Source of the DNA: a virus
Length of the DNA stretch: 64,000 nucleotides
Direction: 5' to 3' (one strand)
IMG/VR virus record: IMGVR_UViG_3300005537_000022
Coordinates: 1 to 64,000 of that record
Made by a program: the position numbers and the translations under genes. Positions 39,264 through 61,837 of this stretch are shown here, in pieces; the stretch's first letter is position 1, and each line of letters starts with the position of its first letter. Below the pieces are notes generated by a model. The model made no database searches. It was not told the origin of the DNA and was given only the letters and a program-made list of their open reading frames with translations.

Positions 39264-42200
39264 TCAGCCCCTGATGCTGATCTTGCGGCCGGCGGCGGGC
39301 AGGAGCTGCGACGCGACCTGCCTGCCGATCTTCGCGGTCAGCTTGTCGATGTCGGAGTCGGACATGACGGTGTTGCCGTGCACGTCGATCACCACCGTTA
39401 TCCCGCCGCCGCCCCCGTAGCCGCCGCCTGCCGGGGCGACGGCGGAGGCCGCCAGCGCCGACCCTGCCGCGGCGCCGCCCGCGCCCAGCCCCGCCGTGGC
39501 CGACAGGGCGCTGCCCGCGACCCGGCGCGCCGCGCCGAGGATGTACGGGATGGAGGCGATGAGCCCGTTCCCGAGGCCCATGCCGAGGTACATGCCGTGC
39601 GGGTAGGTTTTCTTCGACGGGGAGGAGATGCCGAGCGCCGACCCGATGCCGCTGATGATCGACGACGCGAATCCCTCGATCTTGGACATCAGCCAGCCGG
39701 CCGCCCCGGAGATCCCGTTCCAGATGCCCTGCACGATGCCGGCGCCGATGGACACCATCTGCCCCGGGAGGCCGGACAGCCAGCCGAGGATCTTGCCGGG
39801 CAGCGACGAGTACCAGGCCAGGAACCTCGTCCCGGCGTTCCAGACCGCAGACGCGGCCCCGGCGATCCACCGGCCGAACATGCCCGGCAGGCCGGTGAAC
39901 CAGGAGAGCACGTGCTGCACGAACTGGACGCCGTCGGAGAACCAGTGCTTGATGTCGTCCCAGTGCCTGACGATCTGCGTGACGGCCAGGCCGAGCGGCC
40001 CGGCGACCAGCCCGACGATCAGCGTCCAATGCGACTTGACGAAAGATATTACGTCAGAGATAATTTTCGAAATAAAGTCGTAGACATCATCCCACGCGAC
40101 CTCGACGCCGTGCACGATATCGTGCCAGTGCGTGACGATCTCGTAGACGGCGCCGGCGACGGCGGCGACCACGAGCCCGATCCCGAGCAGCATCACCGCG
40201 TTCGCCGCCACCCACGCCGCTGCCGTGGCCAGGGCCCCGGCGATGTTCCCCGCGACGACGACCGCGACCTTCGCCAGGCTCTGCGCTGCCCAGACCGCGC
40301 CCTGGACGGCCATCCCGGCCGCCGACGCCGCCCACGAAGCCGCCGTCGCAGCGGCCCCGGCGACGTTCCGCGCCACGACCACGGCGACCTTCGCGACGGA
40401 CTGCGCCGCCCAGGAAACGCCGGCCGCGGCCTGCTGCCCCATGGACGCCAGCCACGACGACGACGACTCCGCCGCGCCCTCCTCGTTCGCGACGGCGACC
40501 GCCCCCGCGTCGGCCTCCTGCTCGGCCGCCGCCGCGTCCGCCGCGGCGGCCTGCTCGCCGGAGGACTCCCCGGAGATGATCCCGAGCTTCTTCAGCAGGC
40601 CCATCGCCGCATTGGCGGCCTTGCCGACGTCGTCGATGGCGCCCTTGACCGCCTTGTAGGCTTTCGCGGCCCCGGCGATCACCGCGATCGTCGCGGCGAT
40701 CGCGGCCACGCCGACGAACAGGATCTCGGTCAGCGTCTTGTTCTTCGCCGTCCACTCGGCGATCGGGATGACCACCTTCGTGACCGCCGACAGGATGGCG
40801 GTCACCGCAGGGAGGAGCGCGGTGCCGATCGCGATCCCGGTGTTCTCCACCCCGGTCTTCGCCTGGTCGAGCTTGAAGTTGAACGTGGACTGGATCTTGC
40901 CCCAGTTGTCGACGGTGTCGCCGCCCTTGCGGGCCGCCGCCGCCACGGTCGCCGCGTTGTGCTGGAACGTCGACAGCCGGCCGCCGGTCAGCATCAGGGC
41001 GGTGGTCAGCCCGGTGGTGCCGCCCATCGCCTTGTACATGGCCTGCGTGTACGTCTGGCCCAGTGCCCCGGAGTGCTGCTTCGCCGCCGTGGCGACCATG
41101 TTCAGGGTGGCGGCCAGGCCCCGCTTGCCCATGTTCTTCGACAGGTCCGTGGCGGACAGGCCGAGCGCGCCCAGTTCCTTCTGCGCGACCTTATTCGGCG
41201 ACTGGAGCGAGAGAATCGTGTGCCGTAGGTCCTGCGTGGCTTGCTGGGCGGACATGTTCTGCGCCGTCATCGTGGCCAGCGCGCCGCCCACGTCGGAGAA
41301 GCGGATCTTCGCGGCGGCGGCGACCGGGGCGACGTTGCCGAGCGAGGACGCGAGATCCTGCATCCGCATGTCGCCCGCGCCCACGGTGGCGATGAGCTGG
41401 TTCATCATCGACGCCGCGTAATGCGTCTGCTTCCCGGCGTTGCTGCTGGTCATGCCGTAGGCGTTGAGGGTGCCGGTGAGGGTCTTGCCGATCGTGTCGA
41501 GGTCGGCGCCGCCGACCCGCGCGCCCTCGGCGGCGATCTTCAGCACGGCCAGGCCCTGCGCCCCGTGATAGCCGGCGCTCTCCACGTGATACATGGCGGC
41601 GGTGATCGCCTCGGCTGAGGTGCCGGTTGCCGTGGACACGTTCAGGATCCCGGCCCGGACCATGGCGAGGTTCCCCTGGGTCTCGCCCGCGTCCGTCACG
41701 AGATGCTGCGTGGAGTCCTGGAAGTTGCCGGCCGCCTTGACCATCACGCCGGCGGCGACCCCGAGGCCCAGCGCCATGATCCCGGCGATCTTCCCGGCCT
41801 TGCCGAAGCTGGCGCCCGACTTCTCGCCCGCCTTGCCGGCCCGGGTCTGCGCGGCGGCGGCCTCGTCGTTCTTCGCCGCTACCGCCTTGGCGGTGTCCGC
41901 CTGGAGCTTCTCCGCACCGGAGAGGGTCTTCTGCGCGGCGGCGTTCTCCTTGGACGCGGCGGCGAGCCGTTCGTTCGCCTCCATGAGCCGGTACTGCGCG
42001 GCGACGTCGTCGTCCGCGGCCCCGGCCGCTGCCTGGTGCGCTTCCAGGAGGCCGCGCTCGGCGTCGGCCTGCTCTTCCGCCGTCCGGGTGGCCCTTTCCT
42101 GGGCCGCGCTCACCCTCGCGGAGGCCAGTTCCAGCGCGTCGGCACCGGAGGCGGTCTTGAGCAGCGACTCGTCGATCGAGTCGCCGGCGCCCTTCGCGGC

Positions 42201-42323
42201 GCCCGCGGCACGCTCGGCGGTGCCGGCGAACTTGTCGAGGGACTCGTCGACCTTCGCGAAGATCTCCGACGCCCGGTCGCGGGCCTCGAGGATCGCCAGG
42301 AGCGTGAAGGACTCGGCACCCAC
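39264..42323 (-). CDS. tape measure protein (TP901 family core)
   Basis: 1019 aa Ala-rich helical; VGAGDMRMQDLA..LG.V.P core; W-spaced repeats. Confidence 0.92.
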   Translation of the reverse strand: MGAESFTLLAILEARDRASEIFAKVDESLDKFAGTAERAAGAAKGAGDSIDESLLKTASGADALELASARVSAAQERATRTAEEQADAERGLLEAHQAAAGAADDDVAAQYRLMEANERLAAASKENAAAQKTLSGAEKLQADTAKAVAAKNDEAAAAQTRAGKAGEKSGASFGKAGKIAGIMALGLGVAAGVMVKAAGNFQDSTQHLVTDAGETQGNLAMVRAGILNVSTATGTSAEAITAAMYHVESAGYHGAQGLAVLKIAAEGARVGGADLDTIGKTLTGTLNAYGMTSSNAGKQTHYAASMMNQLIATVGAGDMRMQDLASSLGNVAPVAAAAKIRFSDVGGALATMTAQNMSAQQATQDLRHTILSLQSPNKVAQKELGALGLSATDLSKNMGKRGLAATLNMVATAAKQHSGALGQTYTQAMYKAMGGTTGLTTALMLTGGRLSTFQHNAATVAAAARKGGDTVDNWGKIQSTFNFKLDQAKTGVENTGIAIGTALLPAVTAILSAVTKVVIPIAEWTAKNKTLTEILFVGVAAIAATIAVIAGAAKAYKAVKGAIDDVGKAANAAMGLLKKLGIISGESSGEQAAAADAAAAEQEADAGAVAVANEEGAAESSSSWLASMGQQAAAGVSWAAQSVAKVAVVVARNVAGAAATAASWAASAAGMAVQGAVWAAQSLAKVAVVVAGNIAGALATAAAWVAANAVMLLGIGLVVAAVAGAVYEIVTHWHDIVHGVEVAWDDVYDFISKIISDVISFVKSHWTLIVGLVAGPLGLAVTQIVRHWDDIKHWFSDGVQFVQHVLSWFTGLPGMFGRWIAGAASAVWNAGTRFLAWYSSLPGKILGWLSGLPGQMVSIGAGIVQGIWNGISGAAGWLMSKIEGFASSIISGIGSALGISSPSKKTYPHGMYLGMGLGNGLIASIPYILGAARRVAGSALSATAGLGAGGAAAGSALAASAVAPAGGGYGGGGGITVVIDVHGNTVMSDSDIDKLTAKIGRQVASQLLPAAGRKISIRG

Positions 42324-42342
42324 GGGGGATCACCCCCGCCCG

Positions 42343-42567
42343 CTAGCGACCGCCGCCGGCCCGCGCCCGCGCGGCCCTTGCCTGCTCCTCGCGGCGGATC
42401 AGCGAGATGAACAGGGCGTAGTCGTCGATCTCGCGGCGGGGCCTGTTCTCCAGGTCGTCCCGCGTCCAGCCGAGTTCCCTCCAGAACTCACGCTGGATCA
42501 GGAACGCCGTAAGCTGCGGCGGGCCCTCCGTCCCCATCCGGATCGCCGCCGAGGTCCTCGCCAGGAA
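42343..42567 (-). CDS. tail assembly chaperone, frameshifted extension (gpT-like)
   Basis: LGWT.DDLENRP motif; overlaps the chaperone ORF in the +1 frame. Confidence 0.7.
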   Translation of the reverse strand, partial: FLARTSAAIRMGTEGPPQLTAFLIQREFWRELGWTRDDLENRPRREIDDYALFISLIRREEQARAARARAGGGR

Positions 42568-42961
42568 ACTGGGCCGCTTCCTTGGAACTGCGCGGCCCGT
42601 TGAGGTCGTCGCACACCTCGTAGACCTCCATGCGCACGGCTACGGGAAGGGCGGCGATCGCCTTGCGCTTTTCCTTCTCCGGCTCCAGGGGCCACGGGGT
42701 GCCGTCCGGCCACGGGGCGCCGTCCAGGTTCCAGGCCGTGACCGACTGGAAGAGCATCTCTTCCTGGGCGCTGCGCGGGTCGACCGTGATCGTCTGCGTG
42801 CCGCCGTCGACCCTGACCGCCATGCGCCCGGTGCCGAGGTGCCTCTCGACGGGGGCGTACTCGGCACTGGAAAGGGCGCGCTTGACTTCGATCCAGTAGC
42901 CGCCGGGGAGGTCGATGCGCTCCGTGCCGCCGTATCCGGCGGCATCGAGGAAACCTGGCAT
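42488..42961 (-). CDS. tail assembly chaperone (gpG-like)
   Basis: between tail tube and tape measure; V.AWNL.G motif. Confidence 0.8.
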   Translation of the reverse strand: MPGFLDAAGYGGTERIDLPGGYWIEVKRALSSAEYAPVERHLGTGRMAVRVDGGTQTITVDPRSAQEEMLFQSVTAWNLDGAPWPDGTPWPLEPEKEKRKAIAALPVAVRMEVYEVCDDLNGPRSSKEAAQFPGEDLGGDPDGDGGPAAAYGVPDPA

Positions 42962-42984
42962 TTATCGCCTTTCGCGGTCGCGGG

Positions 42985-43959
42985 TTAGTAGGGGGTGGTT
43001 ACGCCGTTGGTGATCACGGCCTGCACCGTGTACTGGGAGCCGCCCGTCAGCGGCCTGGACGCCTCGAACGCGAGCGTCGACATGACGACGTCTTCGAGCT
43101 TCACGTCGGGCGCCACCTTGGTGAGCGCGACCTGCGGGAGGGTGAACGCCACCGAGTAGCCGCCGCCGCCGGGGTGGGTGAACGACAGGGCCAGGGCGCC
43201 GAGGGTGCCGTTCACCATCGTCGTGAAGTCGCCGTAGGTGGAATCGGTGAGCGACGACCAGACGACGTCGATCGTGCCGCTGGCCTTGACGGTCACCGGG
43301 GTGATGAAGCTGGGCCCGTGGTTGCCGGAGAACGTCCACGTCTCCTTGAGCCCGTTGTCGATTTCGAGCTGGATGCTGGAGACCTCGGCGCGGGCGTGGC
43401 TGTCGAGGGTGACCGACGCCTCGGAGAACACGAACGGCAGCTCGTTCGTGATGCTGACCGCGGTCGGGGTGGTGAGGGCGGTGACGGACTGGGCGGACAG
43501 GTCGGCGCTCACGGACACGGCCTCGTTGCCCGCCGCCGCCTTGACGGTCAGCTTCCCGACCTTGCAGCCGGCGAACTGGAGCGACTGGTAGCCGCCGATG
43601 TTCTTTTCCACGGTCAGCGAGGCGAGCGTGTTGGCCTGCGAGATCGTGTGGACGTACGGGCCGGTGCCGGTCACGGCGTCGGTGCCGACCGACGCCCTGA
43701 TCAGCGCCGCCGCGTTGGACGGGAACAGGGCGCCGTCGATGCTCCCGGTGCCCTTGGCTTCCCCGTACAGGTTGAAAACCTGCCTGTCGCGGACGTTCAT
43801 CATCAGGCCGGGAGAGAACCAGCCGGGGTCCCATTCCAGGCCGTTGGTGGTCATCGGCAGGAAGGTGGAGGCGGCCACGGGCACGCCGAAGGACGTTTCG
43901 ATGGCCAGCCCGGTGGCGGAAAGGGAACCGGCGCGCTCGGTGATGGTCGGGAACGGCAC
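42985..43959 (-). CDS. major tail (tube) protein
   Basis: GLAIETSFG, SLTVEK, FAGCKV..L motifs; AAGGAGG RBS. Confidence 0.88.
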   Translation of the reverse strand: MPFPTITERAGSLSATGLAIETSFGVPVAASTFLPMTTNGLEWDPGWFSPGLMMNVRDRQVFNLYGEAKGTGSIDGALFPSNAAALIRASVGTDAVTGTGPYVHTISQANTLASLTVEKNIGGYQSLQFAGCKVGKLTVKAAAGNEAVSVSADLSAQSVTALTTPTAVSITNELPFVFSEASVTLDSHARAEVSSIQLEIDNGLKETWTFSGNHGPSFITPVTVKASGTIDVVWSSLTDSTYGDFTTMVNGTLGALALSFTHPGGGGYSVAFTLPQVALTKVAPDVKLEDVVMSTLAFEASRPLTGGSQYTVQAVITNGVTTPY

Positions 43960-55812: not shown

Positions 55813-56313
55813 ATGACCGACAGTCCCGCAGAGATCCCCGCCGCCTTCAGCGGGCGGGTGAACGGCTCCCTGACTTCCGCGCAGCAGACCGCCGAGAACA
55901 CGGCCCGGATCGCCGCCCTGGTCGCCCAGATCCCCCAGGCGATCGGGATGATGCTCGCCCAGGTGGCCCGCGCCATACCCTCGGGCCACCTGTGCGCCAC
56001 GTGCCTGGCGAACAGGATCGCCTGGGAAGTGGCGAACCGTTCCCACGTCGAGGCGGCTATCGCCGGCGCGCGGGCGGCGCACGGGCTCGCTGAAGGGGAC
56101 CCGGTGCCGCCGGGGTTCGACCCGGCCCCGTTCCTGCCGGCGGACCTGCGGCCCGGCGCGGTGCGCGGCATGCCGCCGCTCACGGCCGCCATCACCACGG
56201 TCGCCGGGACCGACACCTGCTCCGAGCACATTCCCGGCCGGGCCGGGGGCCGGACGCTGCTGGTCGCCTCCGGGGCGCTGTCCCCGTCGGGGATGGCGCG
56301 CTTCGGCACCTAG
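55813..56313 (+). CDS. hypothetical protein (CxxC ... CxxH)
   Basis: GATAAT-N7-ATG; CATC and CSEH. Confidence 0.65.
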   Translation: MTDSPAEIPAAFSGRVNGSLTSAQQTAENTARIAALVAQIPQAIGMMLAQVARAIPSGHLCATCLANRIAWEVANRSHVEAAIAGARAAHGLAEGDPVPPGFDPAPFLPADLRPGAVRGMPPLTAAITTVAGTDTCSEHIPGRAGGRTLLVASGALSPSGMARFGT

Positions 56314-57116
56314 GCCGGGACTATCGCGCACCGGCAGCCGCCCGGGTGGGCCGGCGGGCACAGGTCGCCCGAAGGCCACTCGATCCCGGCGGGACGGGGA
56401 TCGGCGGCGGCATTGTCCAGGCACGCCTTGCAGGTCCGGGAGTCCTGTACGGCGGCCCACCGGAGCAGTCCCGCGCCGTTCGCCTGGTACCACTCCAGCG
56501 CGGCCAGGCCGCCCGCGACCGTGATCTGGGTGACGGCCAGCCCCTCGGCGTAAGCCCCGTCCGCCACGGCGGTCTCCAGCATGCCCGCGAGCTCGGACGC
56601 GGCCGTGTCCGGATCCCAGCCGGCGAGCACGCGGGAGACTACGTTCAGGTAGCCGTCCCCGATCGCCTGGGCGATGCCCGGCCCTTCCCCGCCGCCGGAG
56701 CCGCCGGCGAGCGAGGCGAGCAGCGCGGCCAGGCCGAGCGCCTCCGCCAGCCGCCTCGCCTTCGCCGTGTCTCCCGGGGTCCAGCCGGCCGTGTCCGCGT
56801 CGGCGCTGCCCGCCATCGCGGCCTGCGCCGACGTCCCGCCGATCGCCAGGGCGTCGGCGGCGATCCGCTCGGCCAGGTCCCCGGCCGGGACCGTGATCCC
56901 CTGCGACCGCAGCCAGGCGAGAGCCGCCGCGTTCCGCTCCCGCTTGCCGGGCGCGCTGCCGTCCTGATCCGGGTGGCCGGCCGTGTACGCGGAGGCGATG
57001 GCGTCCAGTTTCCCGCGCGAGAGCGCCTGCCGCGCCGCGGCGGTGACCTTCGGGGCCCACCAGGCGGCGGCGGCCAGGTCTAGCTTCCAGCCCGGCCAGT
57101 CACCAGGGCTTTTGGG
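56310..57116 (-). CDS. Mu gpF-like minor head protein domain, probably reached by -1 frameshift from portal
   Basis: W.A..D.RTC..C..N...PPAHP..CRC; no RBS-supported start seen; CCCAAAA at junction. Confidence 0.8.
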   Translation of the reverse strand, partial: PKSPGDWPGWKLDLAAAAWWAPKVTAAARQALSRGKLDAIASAYTAGHPDQDGSAPGKRERNAAALAWLRSQGITVPAGDLAERIAADALAIGGTSAQAAMAGSADADTAGWTPGDTAKARRLAEALGLAALLASLAGGSGGGEGPGIAQAIGDGYLNVVSRVLAGWDPDTAASELAGMLETAVADGAYAEGLAVTQITVAGGLAALEWYQANGAGLLRWAAVQDSRTCKACLDNAAADPRPAGIEWPSGDLCPPAHPGGCRCAIVPA

Positions 57117-59443
57117 ACGGGCATCGCCGCCTTCACCGCGACGGTCTCTTCCGGCTCGCAGCCCAGCAGCGGCAGCACGTCGCCGAGGGAGGCGGCCAGC
57201 TCTTCCCGCAGCATCGGGTTGCCGGGCAGGTCGCACGGGTCAGCCCACATGATCGCCTCGACGGCGTCGCCGTCCGGGTCGTCCGGGTTCGGCACCACGG
57301 CACCGCCGCGGACGGGGACCGCGGCCTCGGACTCGGTCGTCCACACGATGCCCCGGTAGATGCCGTCCCCGGCCGTCCACTCGCCCGTCACCGAGCCGGG
57401 AGGGGGAACGGCCCCGGTTTCCTCTGCCCATTCGCGCCATGCGGCGCGCAGCGGGGACTCATCGCCCTCGACGTGCCCGCCGGGGAACTCGATCTTGCCT
57501 CCGGCCGGGTCGCCGGGGTCGAGCGCCCGCTGGATCATCAGGACGCGGCCGGTGTCGGCGGCGAGGACCGCGAGGCCCGCGACCGCGACCTCGCCCGCGG
57601 CCTTGCGGACCGCGAGCCTTCCGTCGTCGTTGAGGTTGTGCGCCCAGACCCCTGGCACCGAGCGGAACTCGAAGTCCCGCCACTCGCCATCCTTGCGGCG
57701 GGCCTTCGCGAACCGGCGGAATGCCCGCATCTCCTTGAGGACGGCCGTGCTGCGGACCGCATCCGCGTCCTCGTCATCGTCGTCATCGCCGGCGAGGTCG
57801 TAGGAGTAGATCCCCGTCTCCGCGGTGATCCCCGCGGAGGCGTTCCCGGCCGGGGCCGCGCCCTCGCCTTCCTTGGCGACGGGCTGGCCGGGCCCGGCCT
57901 CGTCGGCCGGCGTCATCTTCGGCTGCGGGGGCGGCGCCGGTGGCATCGCGGACTCGCCGAACTCCCGCTCGGCCAGCGACATGACCTTGATCGGCGGGTT
58001 CGGCAGGACGCCCTCCGTGCCGCCGAAGACCGTCCGCGGCAGCTCCGCGCCTTCCTCGGGCAGCCCGTCCGCCGGGTCGACGTCGCCCGCGACGGCCAGC
58101 AGCGAGGAAACCGGGATGGGCCCGGCTCTCTCCGTGTAGATGAACCGGGGGATCGGCCGGGCGTCGGTCAGCCCGTAGCGCATCTCGCGGATCTCGGACG
58201 GGCCGATGACGCCCATCTTCATGTACTTGTCGTCGGCGTTCGCCTGGTCTACGCGGTCGTCCTGCTCCTCGCCGAGGTCGAACGCGAACTTGAGCGGAAG
58301 CTGCATGTCGTCTTGCAGGAAAGCGGTCAGGATGTCCTGCACGTGGTGGGCGAGCGGGAGGTCGCCGACGCGGTGCTGCACGTCGGCCTGCGACTCGCCG
58401 CTGCTGCGGTTCACGCTCTCGGTGAACCCGAGGTCGCTGGGGACCACGGAGTAGGCGGCGCACGTCTTGCGCATCAGGAACAAGCTGAACTTGTCGTCGA
58501 AGTCCTTCTCGCTGCTCCACGCGAACGACGAGCCGCCCGGGATCCACCGGATCTGGTGCTTGCCCTCCTGGTTGCCCAGCATGAAGCCGTCCCAGTATTC
58601 CTGGAACTGCTCGATCTGCTCCGGGGTCCAGCTTTCGGGGGCGCCCGCGAAGGCGGCGGGCAGGTTCCCGGCGGTGAACCGCTGGAGGAAGTAGAGCTGG
58701 AACCGGATGTCGGTGTTGGCGTTGAGGAGGATGTCCTCCAGCGGCGCCCGGCCGTAAGCCGAGTCGTCCTGCGGGTCGTACGGCTCGTAGATCAGGTCGT
58801 CGCGGGTCAGCCAGTCCCAGGCCAGCCCGTTGACGTACTGGACGTAGGCGGGGGCGGGAGAGTCCGGGGGGTCGCCCCAGTAGTCGAGCAGCGGCGCGAT
58901 CGTGGTGCCGTCGACGACCCTCAGGCCGACGCACCGGCCGGCCCGGTTCCGCATCCGGGCCAGGGTGCCGGCGTCGTAGGACAGTACGCCCCTCATCCAC
59001 TTGGCCAGCCACGGCTTGAACAGGGTCTTGCGGTCCGGCCGCTTCAGCGCGCGCATCCCGGCGGCGATGTCATCGGCGACGTCGCCGTCGTGGCCGTCGG
59101 CGGCGACGAGCTTCCAGTCCAGGCTGCGGAGGCTGGCGATCCTGTGGCGGATGCAGAGCTGGGCTACGTCGTAGGAGCCGATCAGGCCCTTGAGCGTCTC
59201 GAAGCTGACCCGTTCGTGGGTGCGCGGCCGGGTGGCCACGTTGTACTGCGGGACGTACTCCTTGGACCGCGGGGTGCGGGAGAACCCGTCGTACGGCGCG
59301 ATCGGCTCGCCTGGCGAGAACGGGGACGACGGGCCCATCTGGGCGCGTTCCTCGGCTGCCTCGATCGCGGGCGGGACGGAGCTGCCGAAGACCTTCGCGA
59401 CAGGCACCGGCGCGGCGGCGGCGGCGCGGGAACGGACGCTCAT
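57080..59443 (-). CDS. portal protein with C-terminal NUDIX hydrolase domain
   Basis: HK97-like portal motifs (YG..PLE, F..GN.P, V.PSDLG, EIRE..GL); Nudix box GHVEGDESPLRAAWREWAEETG. Confidence 0.9.
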   Translation of the reverse strand: MSVRSRAAAAAPVPVAKVFGSSVPPAIEAAEERAQMGPSSPFSPGEPIAPYDGFSRTPRSKEYVPQYNVATRPRTHERVSFETLKGLIGSYDVAQLCIRHRIASLRSLDWKLVAADGHDGDVADDIAAGMRALKRPDRKTLFKPWLAKWMRGVLSYDAGTLARMRNRAGRCVGLRVVDGTTIAPLLDYWGDPPDSPAPAYVQYVNGLAWDWLTRDDLIYEPYDPQDDSAYGRAPLEDILLNANTDIRFQLYFLQRFTAGNLPAAFAGAPESWTPEQIEQFQEYWDGFMLGNQEGKHQIRWIPGGSSFAWSSEKDFDDKFSLFLMRKTCAAYSVVPSDLGFTESVNRSSGESQADVQHRVGDLPLAHHVQDILTAFLQDDMQLPLKFAFDLGEEQDDRVDQANADDKYMKMGVIGPSEIREMRYGLTDARPIPRFIYTERAGPIPVSSLLAVAGDVDPADGLPEEGAELPRTVFGGTEGVLPNPPIKVMSLAEREFGESAMPPAPPPQPKMTPADEAGPGQPVAKEGEGAAPAGNASAGITAETGIYSYDLAGDDDDDEDADAVRSTAVLKEMRAFRRFAKARRKDGEWRDFEFRSVPGVWAHNLNDDGRLAVRKAAGEVAVAGLAVLAADTGRVLMIQRALDPGDPAGGKIEFPGGHVEGDESPLRAAWREWAEETGAVPPPGSVTGEWTAGDGIYRGIVWTTESEAAVPVRGGAVVPNPDDPDGDAVEAIMWADPCDLPGNPMLREELAASLGDVLPLLGCEPEETVAVKAAMPVPKALVTGRAGS

Positions 59444-60172: not shown

Positions 60173-61837
60173 CTACCGGCCTGTCATGCGCGCCCGCATC
60201 GCCGCGTCCCTCGCCAGCTTCCTCGCGGTCACCGGGTCGGGAGGGACTGGCGGTTCGGGTTCCGGGGCGTCCTCGGGGGCCGGGGCGCGGCGCGGGGACG
60301 GCGCGGGGTTCCCGGCTTCGGCCTCCGCGAGTTCGGCTTTTCTTTTCGCCCAGTTAATCCAGGCTTCAGCACCGCCGCCGACATTCAATAGCCAGTACCT
60401 CAATGCGTCCATGAGGTGGTCGGGGGCGCTGGAGTTCGCATCTTCAGGGTCGCCCCGGGTCGCGTGCGGGAGATTGGATAGTTCCCACCACGTCTTCGGC
60501 AGCGTCCGGAAGAAATGGATCATCGGGCAGGTTTCCCAGCCCATCCCCCGGTGCATCAGGCAGGCAGGGCCTTCGGCGAGGTAGGAGTGGACGCGCTGCC
60601 ACCCCGAGACCCTCGATCCCGGACCCTTGCCCGCAGGCGTCAGGTGGACGCCGTTGTCCGAGTAAATCCGGGAGATCGCCTTGGCATCGCCCCTGGTGGC
60701 AAACATCGCGTCGTCGCCGTACCGCGCCGCGATGTGCTCGGCCTCGCCCTCGGACGCGAGGATGCGCTTCGCCTGCTCCGCTTCGCCGACCTGGGTCTCG
60801 TAGATCTCGCGGTAAGCCCAGCATCTGCCGTCCTCGTCGACCGCGCCCCACAGCACAGCCCACGGTGCCGTGTAGCCCCAGTCAACCGAGCAGTACCGGC
60901 GCCACGAGGCGGGGAGCGTGAACGGGTCGACAGAGTGCCGGTCCCAGCGGAGCTCGGGGAACATCTGCCCGGCGAACTGGCCCCAGTCGCCGTCTCGCAT
61001 CGCCGCGCGACGGGCCGGGTCGGGGATGGCGTCCAGGCGGCGGAAGTACGCCTCGTCCAGGTGGGGGTTGTCGGTGGCCTTCGCGGGGATGAACCGCACC
61101 GTGAGGCCGTGGTCGTCAGTGACGACCTTGCGCCCGTGCTCCGTCGGGTCGATGTACCGGGCGCGGACCTCGCCGTGACCGGGGCCGCCCGGGTTGGACG
61201 TCGACCGGATGCCGATCACCGGGACGCCGTGCGCCGACCGGAGCCGCTCAAGCGCGATCACGTCAACGATCCCCGGGGCGAGCAGCGTGCGCTCGTCGAC
61301 GAACACGAGCTGGTACGCGCCGCCCTGGCGCCGGGACGCGTCGTCGAGCGTCTCCATGTAGCGCAGCCGGATCAGCGAACGGTTCGGGAAGGCGACTTCC
61401 TTCTCCGTCTTGTTCAGCCTGCCGCCGAGGGCCTCGCCCCAAGCGAACCGCTGGAACTCCGGGTAGATCGACTCCGCGAGCTCGTCATAGGAGCGGCGCA
61501 GGATCAGGACGCGGATTCCGGGGTACCGGGCACAGGCCCGCAGTGCCTCGGCGACGATCGCGGCCGTCTTGCCGCCGCCCGCCGATCCGCCGTACAGGAC
61601 GTCGTCCTCGGTCGCCGCATGGAACTGCTCTTGCGGGCACTGGCCGCAGGGCTCGGGAACAATCGCGTCGCCCCGCTTGCGGGCCGCCTGGCGCGGCAGG
61701 CAGATCGGCTCGTAGCCCAGCACCTTGAAGGCGTCTACATTGCGGAGCCGCTCTTCGTCGGCCGCGCGCTTGCGCTCGCGGAGCTCGGCGAGACGGCGGA
61801 GGGTGTCAGGCGACGCCAGGACGAGGGGTGCCGGCAT
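60173..61837 (-). CDS. terL: terminase large subunit
   Basis: Walker A YGGSAGGGKT, Walker B VFVDE, TSNPGG, RNase H VDWG, DHLMDALRY. Confidence 0.95.
   Translation of the reverse strand: MPAPLVLASPDTLRRLAELRERKRAADEERLRNVDAFKVLGYEPICLPRQAARKRGDAIVPEPCGQCPQEQFHAATEDDVLYGGSAGGGKTAAIVAEALRACARYPGIRVLILRRSYDELAESIYPEFQRFAWGEALGGRLNKTEKEVAFPNRSLIRLRYMETLDDASRRQGGAYQLVFVDERTLLAPGIVDVIALERLRSAHGVPVIGIRSTSNPGGPGHGEVRARYIDPTEHGRKVVTDDHGLTVRFIPAKATDNPHLDEAYFRRLDAIPDPARRAAMRDGDWGQFAGQMFPELRWDRHSVDPFTLPASWRRYCSVDWGYTAPWAVLWGAVDEDGRCWAYREIYETQVGEAEQAKRILASEGEAEHIAARYGDDAMFATRGDAKAISRIYSDNGVHLTPAGKGPGSRVSGWQRVHSYLAEGPACLMHRGMGWETCPMIHFFRTLPKTWWELSNLPHATRGDPEDANSSAPDHLMDALRYWLLNVGGGAEAWINWAKRKAELAEAEAGNPAPSPRRAPAPEDAPEPEPPVPPDPVTARKLARDAAMRARMTGR

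What the first reader, a model, noticed from the sequence alone, without database searches (positions are those of the whole stretch)
56310..59443. Portal-NUDIX fusion extended to gpF by a candidate -1 frameshift at C CCA AAA
Seen: the portal ORF carries an intact Nudix box after an acidic linker. Near its end the mRNA reads GTC CCA AAA GCC (57116-57110, X XXY YYZ). The -1 frame continues directly into the gpF-like minor head domain, which has no convincing start of its own; a weak GCCC..GGGC hairpin follows. Known: CCCAAAA is a used -1 slippery site in some phage structural genes, and gpF/MuF proteins often carry enzymatic cargo. Inference: two products, 787 aa and about 1044 aa, place a nucleotide hydrolase in the virion, possibly to destroy host alarmones, immune signals or ADP-ribose at injection.
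Basis: partly seen in the sequence, partly recalled or inferred. Interest (0 to 1): 0.75.

Follow-up and report, generated by a model that had tools for sequence, protein, structure and literature searches.

The report
Frameshift joins portal-NUDIX to MuF
In this 98-kb soil phage, a ribosome-slipping signal (C CCA AAA) near the end of the portal gene very probably lets one gene make the DNA-gate protein both without and with an extra head-protein (MuF) domain. About 80 diverged relatives keep the same signal, and I found it described in no paper.

Summary
On the minus strand, ORF 57080-59443 (787 aa) is portal plus an intact NUDIX domain. C_CCA_AAA (57116-57110) lies in X_XXY_YYZ phase 9 codons before its stop, and the -1 frame runs on for 266 codons into a MuF-type domain, giving a 1044-aa product.

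Comparison is decisive. Of 118 non-redundant portal-NUDIX loci, 84 have an in-phase slippery heptamer at this junction, mostly CCCAAAA, built from rare codons.
- 16-18 loci are "extending", like the window: MuF lies in the -1 frame. In 10 of 16 that frame is closed 0-2 codons before the heptamer, with no start codon for 34-80 codons after it.
- 66 are "truncating", like dnaX: MuF is in frame and the -1 frame stops after a median of 4 codons (background 68).
- None needs a +1 shift at this junction.

The layout changed at least 9 times on the tree while the heptamer stayed. A downstream hairpin is enriched and covaries in one subgroup; in the window it is only modest.

Independent initiation, assembly error and pseudogene are poor fits. 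The NUDIX substrate and its delivery to the host remain untested.

NUDIX-portal/MuF fusions are published; the frameshift is not, as far as I could find. This scan has already noted the same signal in at least seven other genomes.

The parts
57080..59443 (-). Zero-frame ORF, 787 aa: portal-NUDIX, the short product
58181..59155 (-). Phage_portal domain (aa 97-421)
   Evidence: Pfam PF04860, 56.2 bits against cut-off 39.1; phrog_2662 portal, E 4e-43
57767..57787 (-). Acidic run DDDDDED in the linker before NUDIX (aa 553-559)
57209..57574 (-). NUDIX domain (aa 624-745)
   Evidence: Pfam PF00293, 55 bits against cut-off 21.1
57410..57478 (-). Intact Nudix box GX5EX7REUXEEXGU (aa 656-678)
   Evidence: regex match
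57110..57116 (-). Slippery heptamer C_CCA_AAA in X_XXY_YYZ phase: the proposed -1 shift site
   Evidence: same heptamer and phase in relatives
57055..57109 (-). Predicted downstream stem-loop, a candidate stimulator; it contains the zero-frame stop
   Evidence: fold -28.3 kcal/mol, z -1.32; z -1.6 against other windows of the same gene
57080..57082 (-). Zero-frame stop TAG, 9 codons after the heptamer. It arises from the rare Leu codon CTA of the -1 frame (AAG CTA GAC = KLD).
56310..57110 (-). -1 frame continuation of 266 codons plus stop: MuF-type minor head domain, the C-terminal part of the 1044-aa long product
   Evidence: Aligns from WPGW to the end with the in-frame MuF part of P0057 (E 3e-25) and of Sonali gp3.
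56322..56597 (-). Match to Pfam Phage_Mu_F (C-terminal part with the HPxxCRC motif)
   Evidence: PF04233, 21.4-21.9 bits, below the 29.6 cut-off; phrog_2841 minor head protein, and phrog_2662 positions 600-707
60173..61837 (-). Large terminase, the gene just upstream (context: head module)
   Evidence: phrog_2, E 7e-35

Best explanation
A programmed -1 ribosomal frameshift. Most ribosomes translating the late head mRNA read the portal-NUDIX ORF to the TAG at 57082-57080 and make a 787-aa subunit. A fraction slip back one base when the P and A sites hold CCA and AAA of C_CCA_AAA (57116-57110), probably helped by the GC-rich stem-loop just downstream. These ribosomes continue in the -1 frame and make a 1044-aa subunit carrying a C-terminal MuF (SPP1 gp7 / Mu gpF type) domain.

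The two products share the portal and NUDIX parts. I infer that they co-assemble into the 12-subunit portal, so that only a few subunits carry MuF inside the capsid. This would mirror phages in which a separate MuF protein binds the portal in few copies.

Shown here: the sequence anatomy; conservation of heptamer, phase and frame relation; absence of an alternative start; the enriched downstream structure. Inferred: that slippage really occurs, its efficiency, co-assembly, and the stoichiometric purpose.
For: 1. Anatomy in the window. There is one in-phase X_XXY_YYZ heptamer in 787 codons, placed at the NUDIX/MuF junction 9 codons before the stop, and the -1 frame is open for 266 further codons.

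2. Conservation. Of 118 non-redundant portal-NUDIX loci from isolate genomes, metagenomes and IMG/VR, 84 have a complete in-phase heptamer at this junction. Counting 10 further loci cut off by a contig end, the heptamers are CCCAAAA 78, GGGAAAA 9, GGGAAAC 1, CCCTTTA/C 3, plus 3 doubtful (GGGTTTC 2, AAAAAAT 1).

3. Selection at the nucleotide level. In the same genes AAA is 9% of Lys codons and CCA 3.7% of Pro codons, and 0 of 32 other Pro-Lys pairs are CCA-AAA.

4. No own start. In 10 of 16 extending loci the MuF frame has a stop 0-2 codons before the heptamer and no ATG/GTG/TTG for 34-80 codons after it. The window has only GTG 57236, without an SD. Homology to in-frame relatives starts right after the heptamer, while the 40 residues upstream in that frame match nothing.

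5. Frame logic. The spacer from the heptamer to the conserved WxGW codons is 0 mod 3 in 61 loci, 2 mod 3 in 14 and 1 mod 3 in none.

6. In the 37 truncating loci tested, the -1 frame stops after a median of 4 codons against a background median of 68, as in dnaX.

7. The layout changed at least 9 times on the portal tree while the heptamer stayed.

8. Downstream structure. Mean MFE is -19.2 against -13.7 kcal/mol for control windows, mean z -1.3. In one subgroup the hairpin is 90.7% paired against 44-57% for slid controls, with 3 pairs showing compensatory changes.

9. C_CCA_AAG is reported as highly shift-prone in E. coli (review PMC5009743).
Against: - There are no protein, ribosome-profiling or reporter data for any member, so slippage is inferred.
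- The window's own stem-loop is only modestly better than shuffles (z -1.32, 19 of 200 as good). Its strong core starts about 12 nt after the heptamer, further than the classic 5-9 nt.
- Structures in extending relatives are weak and not alike.
- A few relatives (L008, L012, L015, L016, L160) are plain fusions without any heptamer, so the two-product design is not obligatory.
- The tree is a FastTree with a midpoint root, and the loci are related, so counts of loci are not independent events.
Confidence: 0.85

Rival explanations
1. Two separate genes. The MuF-type protein is started independently, at GTG 57236 or by re-initiation near the portal stop, and no slippage occurs.
For: The -1 frame is open for 41 codons before the heptamer in the window and begins with GTG 57236. 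Portal and MuF are separate genes in many phages, such as SPP1 (PMC6316719).
Against: GTG 57236 has no SD-like sequence, and the 40 residues it would add are an Arg-rich off-frame reading of the NUDIX region with no homologue. No other start codon exists from 57236 down to 56900. In 10 of 16 relatives with the same layout the frame is closed 0-2 codons before the heptamer, with no start for 34-80 codons after it. This reading does not explain the conserved rare-codon heptamer in in-frame relatives.
Confidence: 0.05
2. An artefact or decay. A one-base assembly error or a real frameshift mutation broke an originally fused portal-NUDIX-MuF gene, leaving a pseudogene.
For: Most relatives, including the cultured phages Sonali and Mufasa8, have one continuous ORF. 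The window is a metagenome-derived virus record, and reads cannot be checked here.
Against: The same layout occurs in 16 loci from independent assemblies, among them four Kitasatospora isolate genomes. The shift is always -1 and never +1 at this junction. The A run has the same length (4) in both layouts; the difference lies in the variable spacer after it. The MuF frame stays open and conserved over 260-340 codons.
Confidence: 0.03
3. The heptamer and hairpin are kept for another reason, such as an RNA processing or stability element, a DNA site or a protein motif. Ribosomes do not shift at a useful rate, and in extending phages MuF is simply not made.
For: Pro-Lys is also conserved as protein in this linker. 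No expression data exist.
Against: A protein motif does not explain the exclusive use of rare CCA and AAA plus a preceding C. It also fails to explain the strict phase, the nearby -1 stops in in-frame relatives, the replacement by other canonical heptamers (GGGAAAA, CCCTTTA, CCCTTTC), or the long conserved open MuF frame in extending phages.
Confidence: 0.05
4. Transcriptional slippage. RNA polymerase adds or drops an A in the A run, so that some mRNAs are in the other frame.
For: The site contains a homopolymer run (AAAA). Transcriptional realignment is a known route to two products (review PMC5009743).
Against: The run is only 4 A. From general knowledge of such sites, productive slippage needs roughly 7 or more identical bases. 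The conserved CCC before the run, the codon phase and the downstream hairpin are features of ribosomal, not transcriptional, slippage.
Confidence: 0.02

Closest known systems
E. coli dnaX tau/gamma -1 frameshift (A_AAA_AAG plus stem-loop)
   Same: One gene and two products that share the N-terminal part; heptamer plus downstream stem-loop. In 66 relatives the -1 frame stops within a few codons, so shifting removes a C-terminal domain, exactly the dnaX layout.
   Different: The window has the opposite layout: shifting adds the domain. The heptamer is C_CCA_AAA. No upstream SD-like stimulator was established. The protein is a virion part, not a replication factor.
Lambda G/GT tail assembly chaperone -1 frameshift, conserved in long-tailed phages (Xu, Hendrix and Duda 2004, as cited in PMC7302621 and PMC10885494)
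   Same: A conserved -1 shift in a phage structural operon extends a short abundant product into a longer, rarer one, and is thought to set a fixed ratio.
   Different: Different genes (portal and MuF, not chaperones), and both products here are likely virion parts. This family also flips between extending and truncating layouts.
Capsid-gene frameshifts: Lactobacillus phage A2 major head protein (Garcia et al. 2004, listed in PMC5009743 and PMC10885494); T7 gene 10A/10B (my own knowledge)
   Same: A -1 shift near the end of a head gene gives a C-terminally extended minor form that is built into the capsid.
   Different: Those act on the major capsid protein. I recall the A2 site also being C_CCA_AAA but could not check it, as the paper is not held.
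Arthrobacter phages Sonali gp3 and Mufasa8 gp3 ('portal and MuF-like fusion protein')
   Same: The same portal-NUDIX-MuF order, 45-46% identity to the window's portal-NUDIX. CCCAAAA sits in phase at the same junction.
   Different: MuF is in frame there (995 and 1000 aa), and the -1 frame stops 9 codons after the heptamer. They are annotated as a single product, with no frameshift noted.
SPP1 gp6 (portal) and gp7 (MuF prototype)
   Same: MuF is brought into the procapsid by the portal in a few copies (PMC6316719). The long product would achieve this covalently.
   Different: SPP1 uses two genes and a non-covalent contact, with no NUDIX and no recoding.
NUDIX domains fused to MuF, portal or prohead protease in phages (Iyer et al. 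2022, PMC9503650)
   Same: That paper notes such fusions and proposes packaging into the head and action against NAD/ADP-ribose-derived signals.
   Different: It mentions no frameshift. The family membership and substrate of this NUDIX are not resolved.

Membership tests
Canonical -1 programmed ribosomal frameshift cassette | Slippery heptamer X_XXY_YYZ in the zero-frame phase | tested here: met
   C_CCA_AAA at 57116-57110 is in phase, and is the only such heptamer in the ORF.
Canonical -1 programmed ribosomal frameshift cassette | Long open -1 frame that encodes a conserved protein part and has no start of its own | tested here: met
   266 codons, homologous to in-frame MuF parts. The window has no usable start, and none is possible in 10 of 16 relatives.
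Canonical -1 programmed ribosomal frameshift cassette | Stimulatory RNA structure a few bases downstream | tested here: inconclusive
   Family-wide enrichment (mean z -1.3) and covariation in one subgroup. The window's own stem-loop is modest (z -1.32) and is not shared in form with the other extending loci.
Canonical -1 programmed ribosomal frameshift cassette | Site conserved at the nucleotide level among diverged relatives | tested here: met
   84 of 118 loci; rare codons used only here.
Canonical -1 programmed ribosomal frameshift cassette | Two protein products seen, with a trans-frame junction peptide | not testable with these tools
   No proteomic or profiling data are available.
Phage portal protein (Pfam PF04860) | Profile match above the curated cut-off, and a position next to the large terminase | tested here: met
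   56.2 bits against 39.1; the terminase lies just upstream.
NUDIX hydrolase (Pfam PF00293) | Profile match above the cut-off and an intact Nudix box GX5EX7REUXEEXGU | tested here: met
   55 bits against 21.1; box at aa 656-678.
NUDIX hydrolase (Pfam PF00293) | Assignable substrate class (MutT, ADP-ribose pyrophosphatase, RppH and so on) | tested here: inconclusive
   All NCBIfam equivalog hits are far below their cut-offs. PDB hits are weak and mixed, MutT-like at 1e-5 and ADPRase at 2e-4.
MuF / SPP1 gp7 minor head protein (Pfam PF04233) | Profile match above the curated cut-off | tested here: not met
   21.4-21.9 bits against a cut-off of 29.6.
MuF / SPP1 gp7 minor head protein (Pfam PF04233) | Full-length homology to proteins that do pass the cut-off, in the same position after the portal | tested here: met
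   Aligns over aa 47-308 with P0057 residues 780-1047 (E 3e-25). P0057 and Sonali gp3 score 37.1 and 38.5 bits. The C-terminal HPxxCRC motif is shared.

The most novel reading that the evidence does not exclude
The portal/MuF junction is a third widely conserved recoding site of tailed phages, after the tail chaperone and capsid sites. A -1 frameshift sets the number of MuF-bearing portal subunits. The layout flips freely between 'shift adds MuF' and 'shift removes MuF', with stimulator strength adjusted to keep the product ratio: truncating loci have stronger downstream structure (z -1.54 against -0.71). It also reaches beyond NUDIX-bearing actinophages. Two Tengunoibacter (Chloroflexota) prophage copies have portal and MuF joined by an in-phase T_TTT_TTC, with the MuF frame opening exactly at the heptamer.
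Probability: 0.5. Interest if true: 0.8.

Novelty: new variant of a known kind. Interest (0 to 1): 0.72.

Why it matters
- Portal-MuF and portal-enzyme-MuF genes are annotated as single products or as two unrelated genes. If the shift is real, each encodes two virion proteins, and annotation pipelines miss one of them.
- It would explain how a 12-subunit portal can carry a bulky internal domain in only a few copies.
- It offers a natural series in which the same signal works in both directions, which is useful for studying how frameshift efficiency is tuned.
- It can be tested directly in cultured Arthrobacter phages (Sonali, Mufasa8).
- The built-in NUDIX enzyme adds a possible counter-defence or nucleotide-cleaning function at the DNA gate.

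Tried and rejected
- tblastn of the MuF part against cultured phages found nothing at E 1e-5, although the pairwise comparison with Sonali gp3 is significant.
- RNAalifold on a mixed set of 18 truncating loci gave no useful consensus, because loop and spacer lengths differ. A gap-free subgroup worked.
- The extending loci share no common fold.
- CCCAAAA frequency in the window is not above chance, so I do not use it as evidence.
- Two loci with GGGTTTC (L081, L184) and one with AAAAAAT (L202) were picked up automatically but not verified as the homologous junction. I left them out of the later counts.
- L114 has MuF in the +1 frame, but the break lies well inside MuF and has no heptamer. I read it as an error or decay.
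- L147 was mis-framed by my motif finder.
- The NUDIX substrate could not be assigned.
- The phage A2 paper is not held, so my recollection of its heptamer is unverified.
- Literature searches and the 2016 recoding review (no 'portal' or 'MuF' in the 300,000 of its 429,602 characters that are held) gave no report of this frameshift. PRFect lists MuF-like and VIP2 genes among its 'false positives', which is only a hint.
- I ran no structure prediction, because it would not bear on the frameshift.
Full report
**What is in the window**

The window belongs to a 98,382-base IMG/VR virus record rated complete, with 71% G+C. On the minus strand a head-and-tail module runs from the large terminase (60173-61837) to a tape measure gene (39264-42329).

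Directly after the terminase lies ORF 57080-59443, 787 aa.
- It matches Pfam Phage_portal (aa 97-421) and NUDIX (aa 624-745), both above the curated cut-offs.
- It has an acidic run at aa 553-559 and an intact Nudix box at aa 656-678.
- Nine codons before its TAG the mRNA reads GTC CCA AAA GCC. CCCAAAA (57116-57110) therefore sits in X_XXY_YYZ phase, and it is the only in-phase heptamer of this type in the ORF.

After a -1 slip the reading continues VPK|SPGDWPGWK for 266 codons to 56310, giving 1044 aa. This part scores below the Pfam MuF cut-off on its own (21.9 against 29.6 bits). However, it aligns end to end with the MuF part of relatives that pass the cut-off.

**Is it a real recoding signal?**

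The window alone cannot tell. CCCAAAA occurs once in 64 kb, about as often as chance predicts, and the downstream fold is only modestly better than shuffles (z -1.32). Relatives decide the matter.

A protein search gave hundreds of portal-NUDIX proteins in two length classes, about 780-850 aa and about 1015-1110 aa. The short ones nearly all end with ..PK plus 8-25 residues.

I fetched DNA for relatives from species genomes, metagenomes and IMG/VR and classified 118 non-redundant portal-NUDIX loci:
- 84 have a complete in-phase slippery heptamer at the NUDIX/MuF junction.
- 10 more are cut off by a contig end.
- 24 have none. These are either truncated contigs, variants without MuF, or five plain fusions whose linker has been replaced.

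Among the 94 loci with a heptamer (the 84 plus the 10 cut ones), CCCAAAA occurs in 78, GGGAAAA in 9 and CCCTTTA or CCCTTTC in 3.

In these same genes AAA is 9% of Lys codons and CCA 3.7% of Pro codons. None of the 32 other Pro-Lys pairs is CCA-AAA. The heptamer is therefore kept as nucleotides, not as amino acids.

**Two layouts, one signal**

- **Extending layout.** In 16 verified loci, including the window, four Kitasatospora isolate genomes and several metagenome phages, MuF lies in the -1 frame and the zero frame stops 7-24 codons after the heptamer.
- **Truncating layout.** In 66 loci, including the cultured Arthrobacter phages Sonali and Mufasa8, MuF is in frame. In the 37 of them tested, the -1 frame stops after a median of 4 codons, often as CCCAAAAGGTGA or CCCAAAAGCTGA. 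The background median in the same genes is 68. This is the dnaX layout.

The spacer between the heptamer and the conserved WxGW codons is 0 mod 3 in 61 loci, 2 mod 3 in 14 and 1 mod 3 in none. The flip is therefore made by small indels in a variable linker, and a layout needing a +1 shift is never seen.

On a tree of the portal part, well-supported branches force at least 9 changes of the extending state (FastTree, midpoint root).

**No other way to make MuF**

In 10 of 16 extending loci the MuF frame has a stop 0-2 codons before the heptamer, and no ATG, GTG or TTG for 34-80 codons after it.

In the window the only candidate start is GTG 57236, 40 codons upstream. It has no SD-like sequence, and the residues it would add have no homologue.

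**RNA structure**

Across 56 loci the 45 nt after the heptamer fold more stably than other windows of the same genes: -19.2 against -13.7 kcal/mol, mean z -1.3.

One subgroup has a 9-bp hairpin starting 3 nt after the heptamer, with a GC core 6 nt after it:
- 90.7% of cells are paired, against 44-57% in slid controls.
- Three pairs show compensatory changes.
- None of 500 shuffles reaches the observed covariation score.

Truncating loci fold more strongly than extending ones (z -1.54 against -0.71, Mann-Whitney p 0.006, not corrected for relatedness). This fits the idea that they need a higher shift rate to give the same product ratio, but it is only a lead.

**Mechanism proposed**

The proposal is a -1 tandem slip of tRNA-Pro and tRNA-Lys on C_CCA_AAA. 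The 2016 recoding review reports C_CCA_AAG as highly shift-prone in E. coli (PMC5009743).

I infer that the short and long subunits co-assemble into the portal, so that only some subunits carry MuF on the capsid-interior side. In SPP1 the separate MuF protein gp7 is brought in by the portal in a few copies (PMC6316719).

The NUDIX domain is in both products. Its substrate is open. Whether it is released into the host is unknown, and a covalently joined domain would need cleavage first.

**Rivals**

- **Separate initiation.** Contradicted.
- **Assembly error or pseudogene.** Contradicted by recurrence in independent assemblies, the exclusive -1 direction, the constant A4 run and the conserved open MuF frame.
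- **Transcriptional slippage.** Unlikely on four A.
- **A non-translational role of the motif.** Does not explain the phase, the stop placement or the swaps between canonical heptamers.

**Known or new**

- Portal-MuF fusions are described in actinophages (PMC7302621).
- NUDIX domains fused to MuF, portal or the protease are described by Iyer et al. (PMC9503650).
- Sonali gp3 is annotated as a single fusion protein.
- I found no paper that reports a frameshift at this junction. The mechanism is classical; the gene pair, the breadth and the layout flipping are new.
- This scan has already noted the same signal in at least seven other genomes. I reached my reading before seeing those notes, and I tested the shared claims myself.

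**Verdict**

I put about 0.85 on a functional -1 frameshift, pending protein-level proof.

Noticed in passing
L031:5434-5500 and L032 (Tengunoibacter tsumagoiensis, two prophage copies): A portal without NUDIX (567 aa) is followed by a MuF ORF in the -1 frame. That frame opens exactly at an in-phase T_TTT_TTC, with a TGA just before it and a 7-bp GC stem after it. This looks like the same portal-to-MuF frameshift in another phylum, with another heptamer.
   Followed up: partly
window 42300-43000, minus strand: Upstream of the tape measure gene lies a chaperone-like ORF pair in which the second part (..REFWRELGWTRDDLE..) is in the +1 (or -2) frame relative to the first, not the usual -1. No in-phase -1 heptamer was seen for that pair.
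   Followed up: no
L008, L012, L015, L016 (Streptomyces prophages), L160: These are plain portal-NUDIX-MuF fusions that have lost the heptamer. In the four Streptomyces prophages the PK linker is replaced by an acidic low-complexity stretch, in L160 by a short linker; L012, L015 and L016 carry a Cys-rich insert (CPCCSGSGEHSNGCECLHCDASG-like) between NUDIX and MuF.
   Followed up: partly
P0080, L162; L169: Some relatives keep only the last 50 or so residues of MuF (the Cys/His HPxCGC end) directly after NUDIX. Others (L169) have no MuF at all and go straight to a protease-like gene.
   Followed up: no
window 57080-57088 and the same place in L056, L078, L148: The zero-frame TAG stop is created by the rare Leu codon CTA in the MuF frame (AAG CTA GAC). 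This suggests selection for early termination of the short product.
   Followed up: no
contig lengths: Many relatives sit on contigs of 94-105 kb (98,122; 98,687; 97,469; 99,284 and others). This is a coherent group of roughly 98-kb soil actinophages, some also integrated in, or assembled with, Streptomyces and Kitasatospora genomes.
   Followed up: no
all junction loci: The structure downstream of the heptamer is stronger in truncating than in extending loci (z -1.54 against -0.71, p 0.006, uncorrected for relatedness). This would be expected if both layouts aim at the same short:long ratio.
   Followed up: partly
L114:4700-4760: This is the single locus where MuF continues in the +1 frame. 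The break is inside the MuF part and has no slippery site, so it is probably an assembly error or decay.
   Followed up: partly
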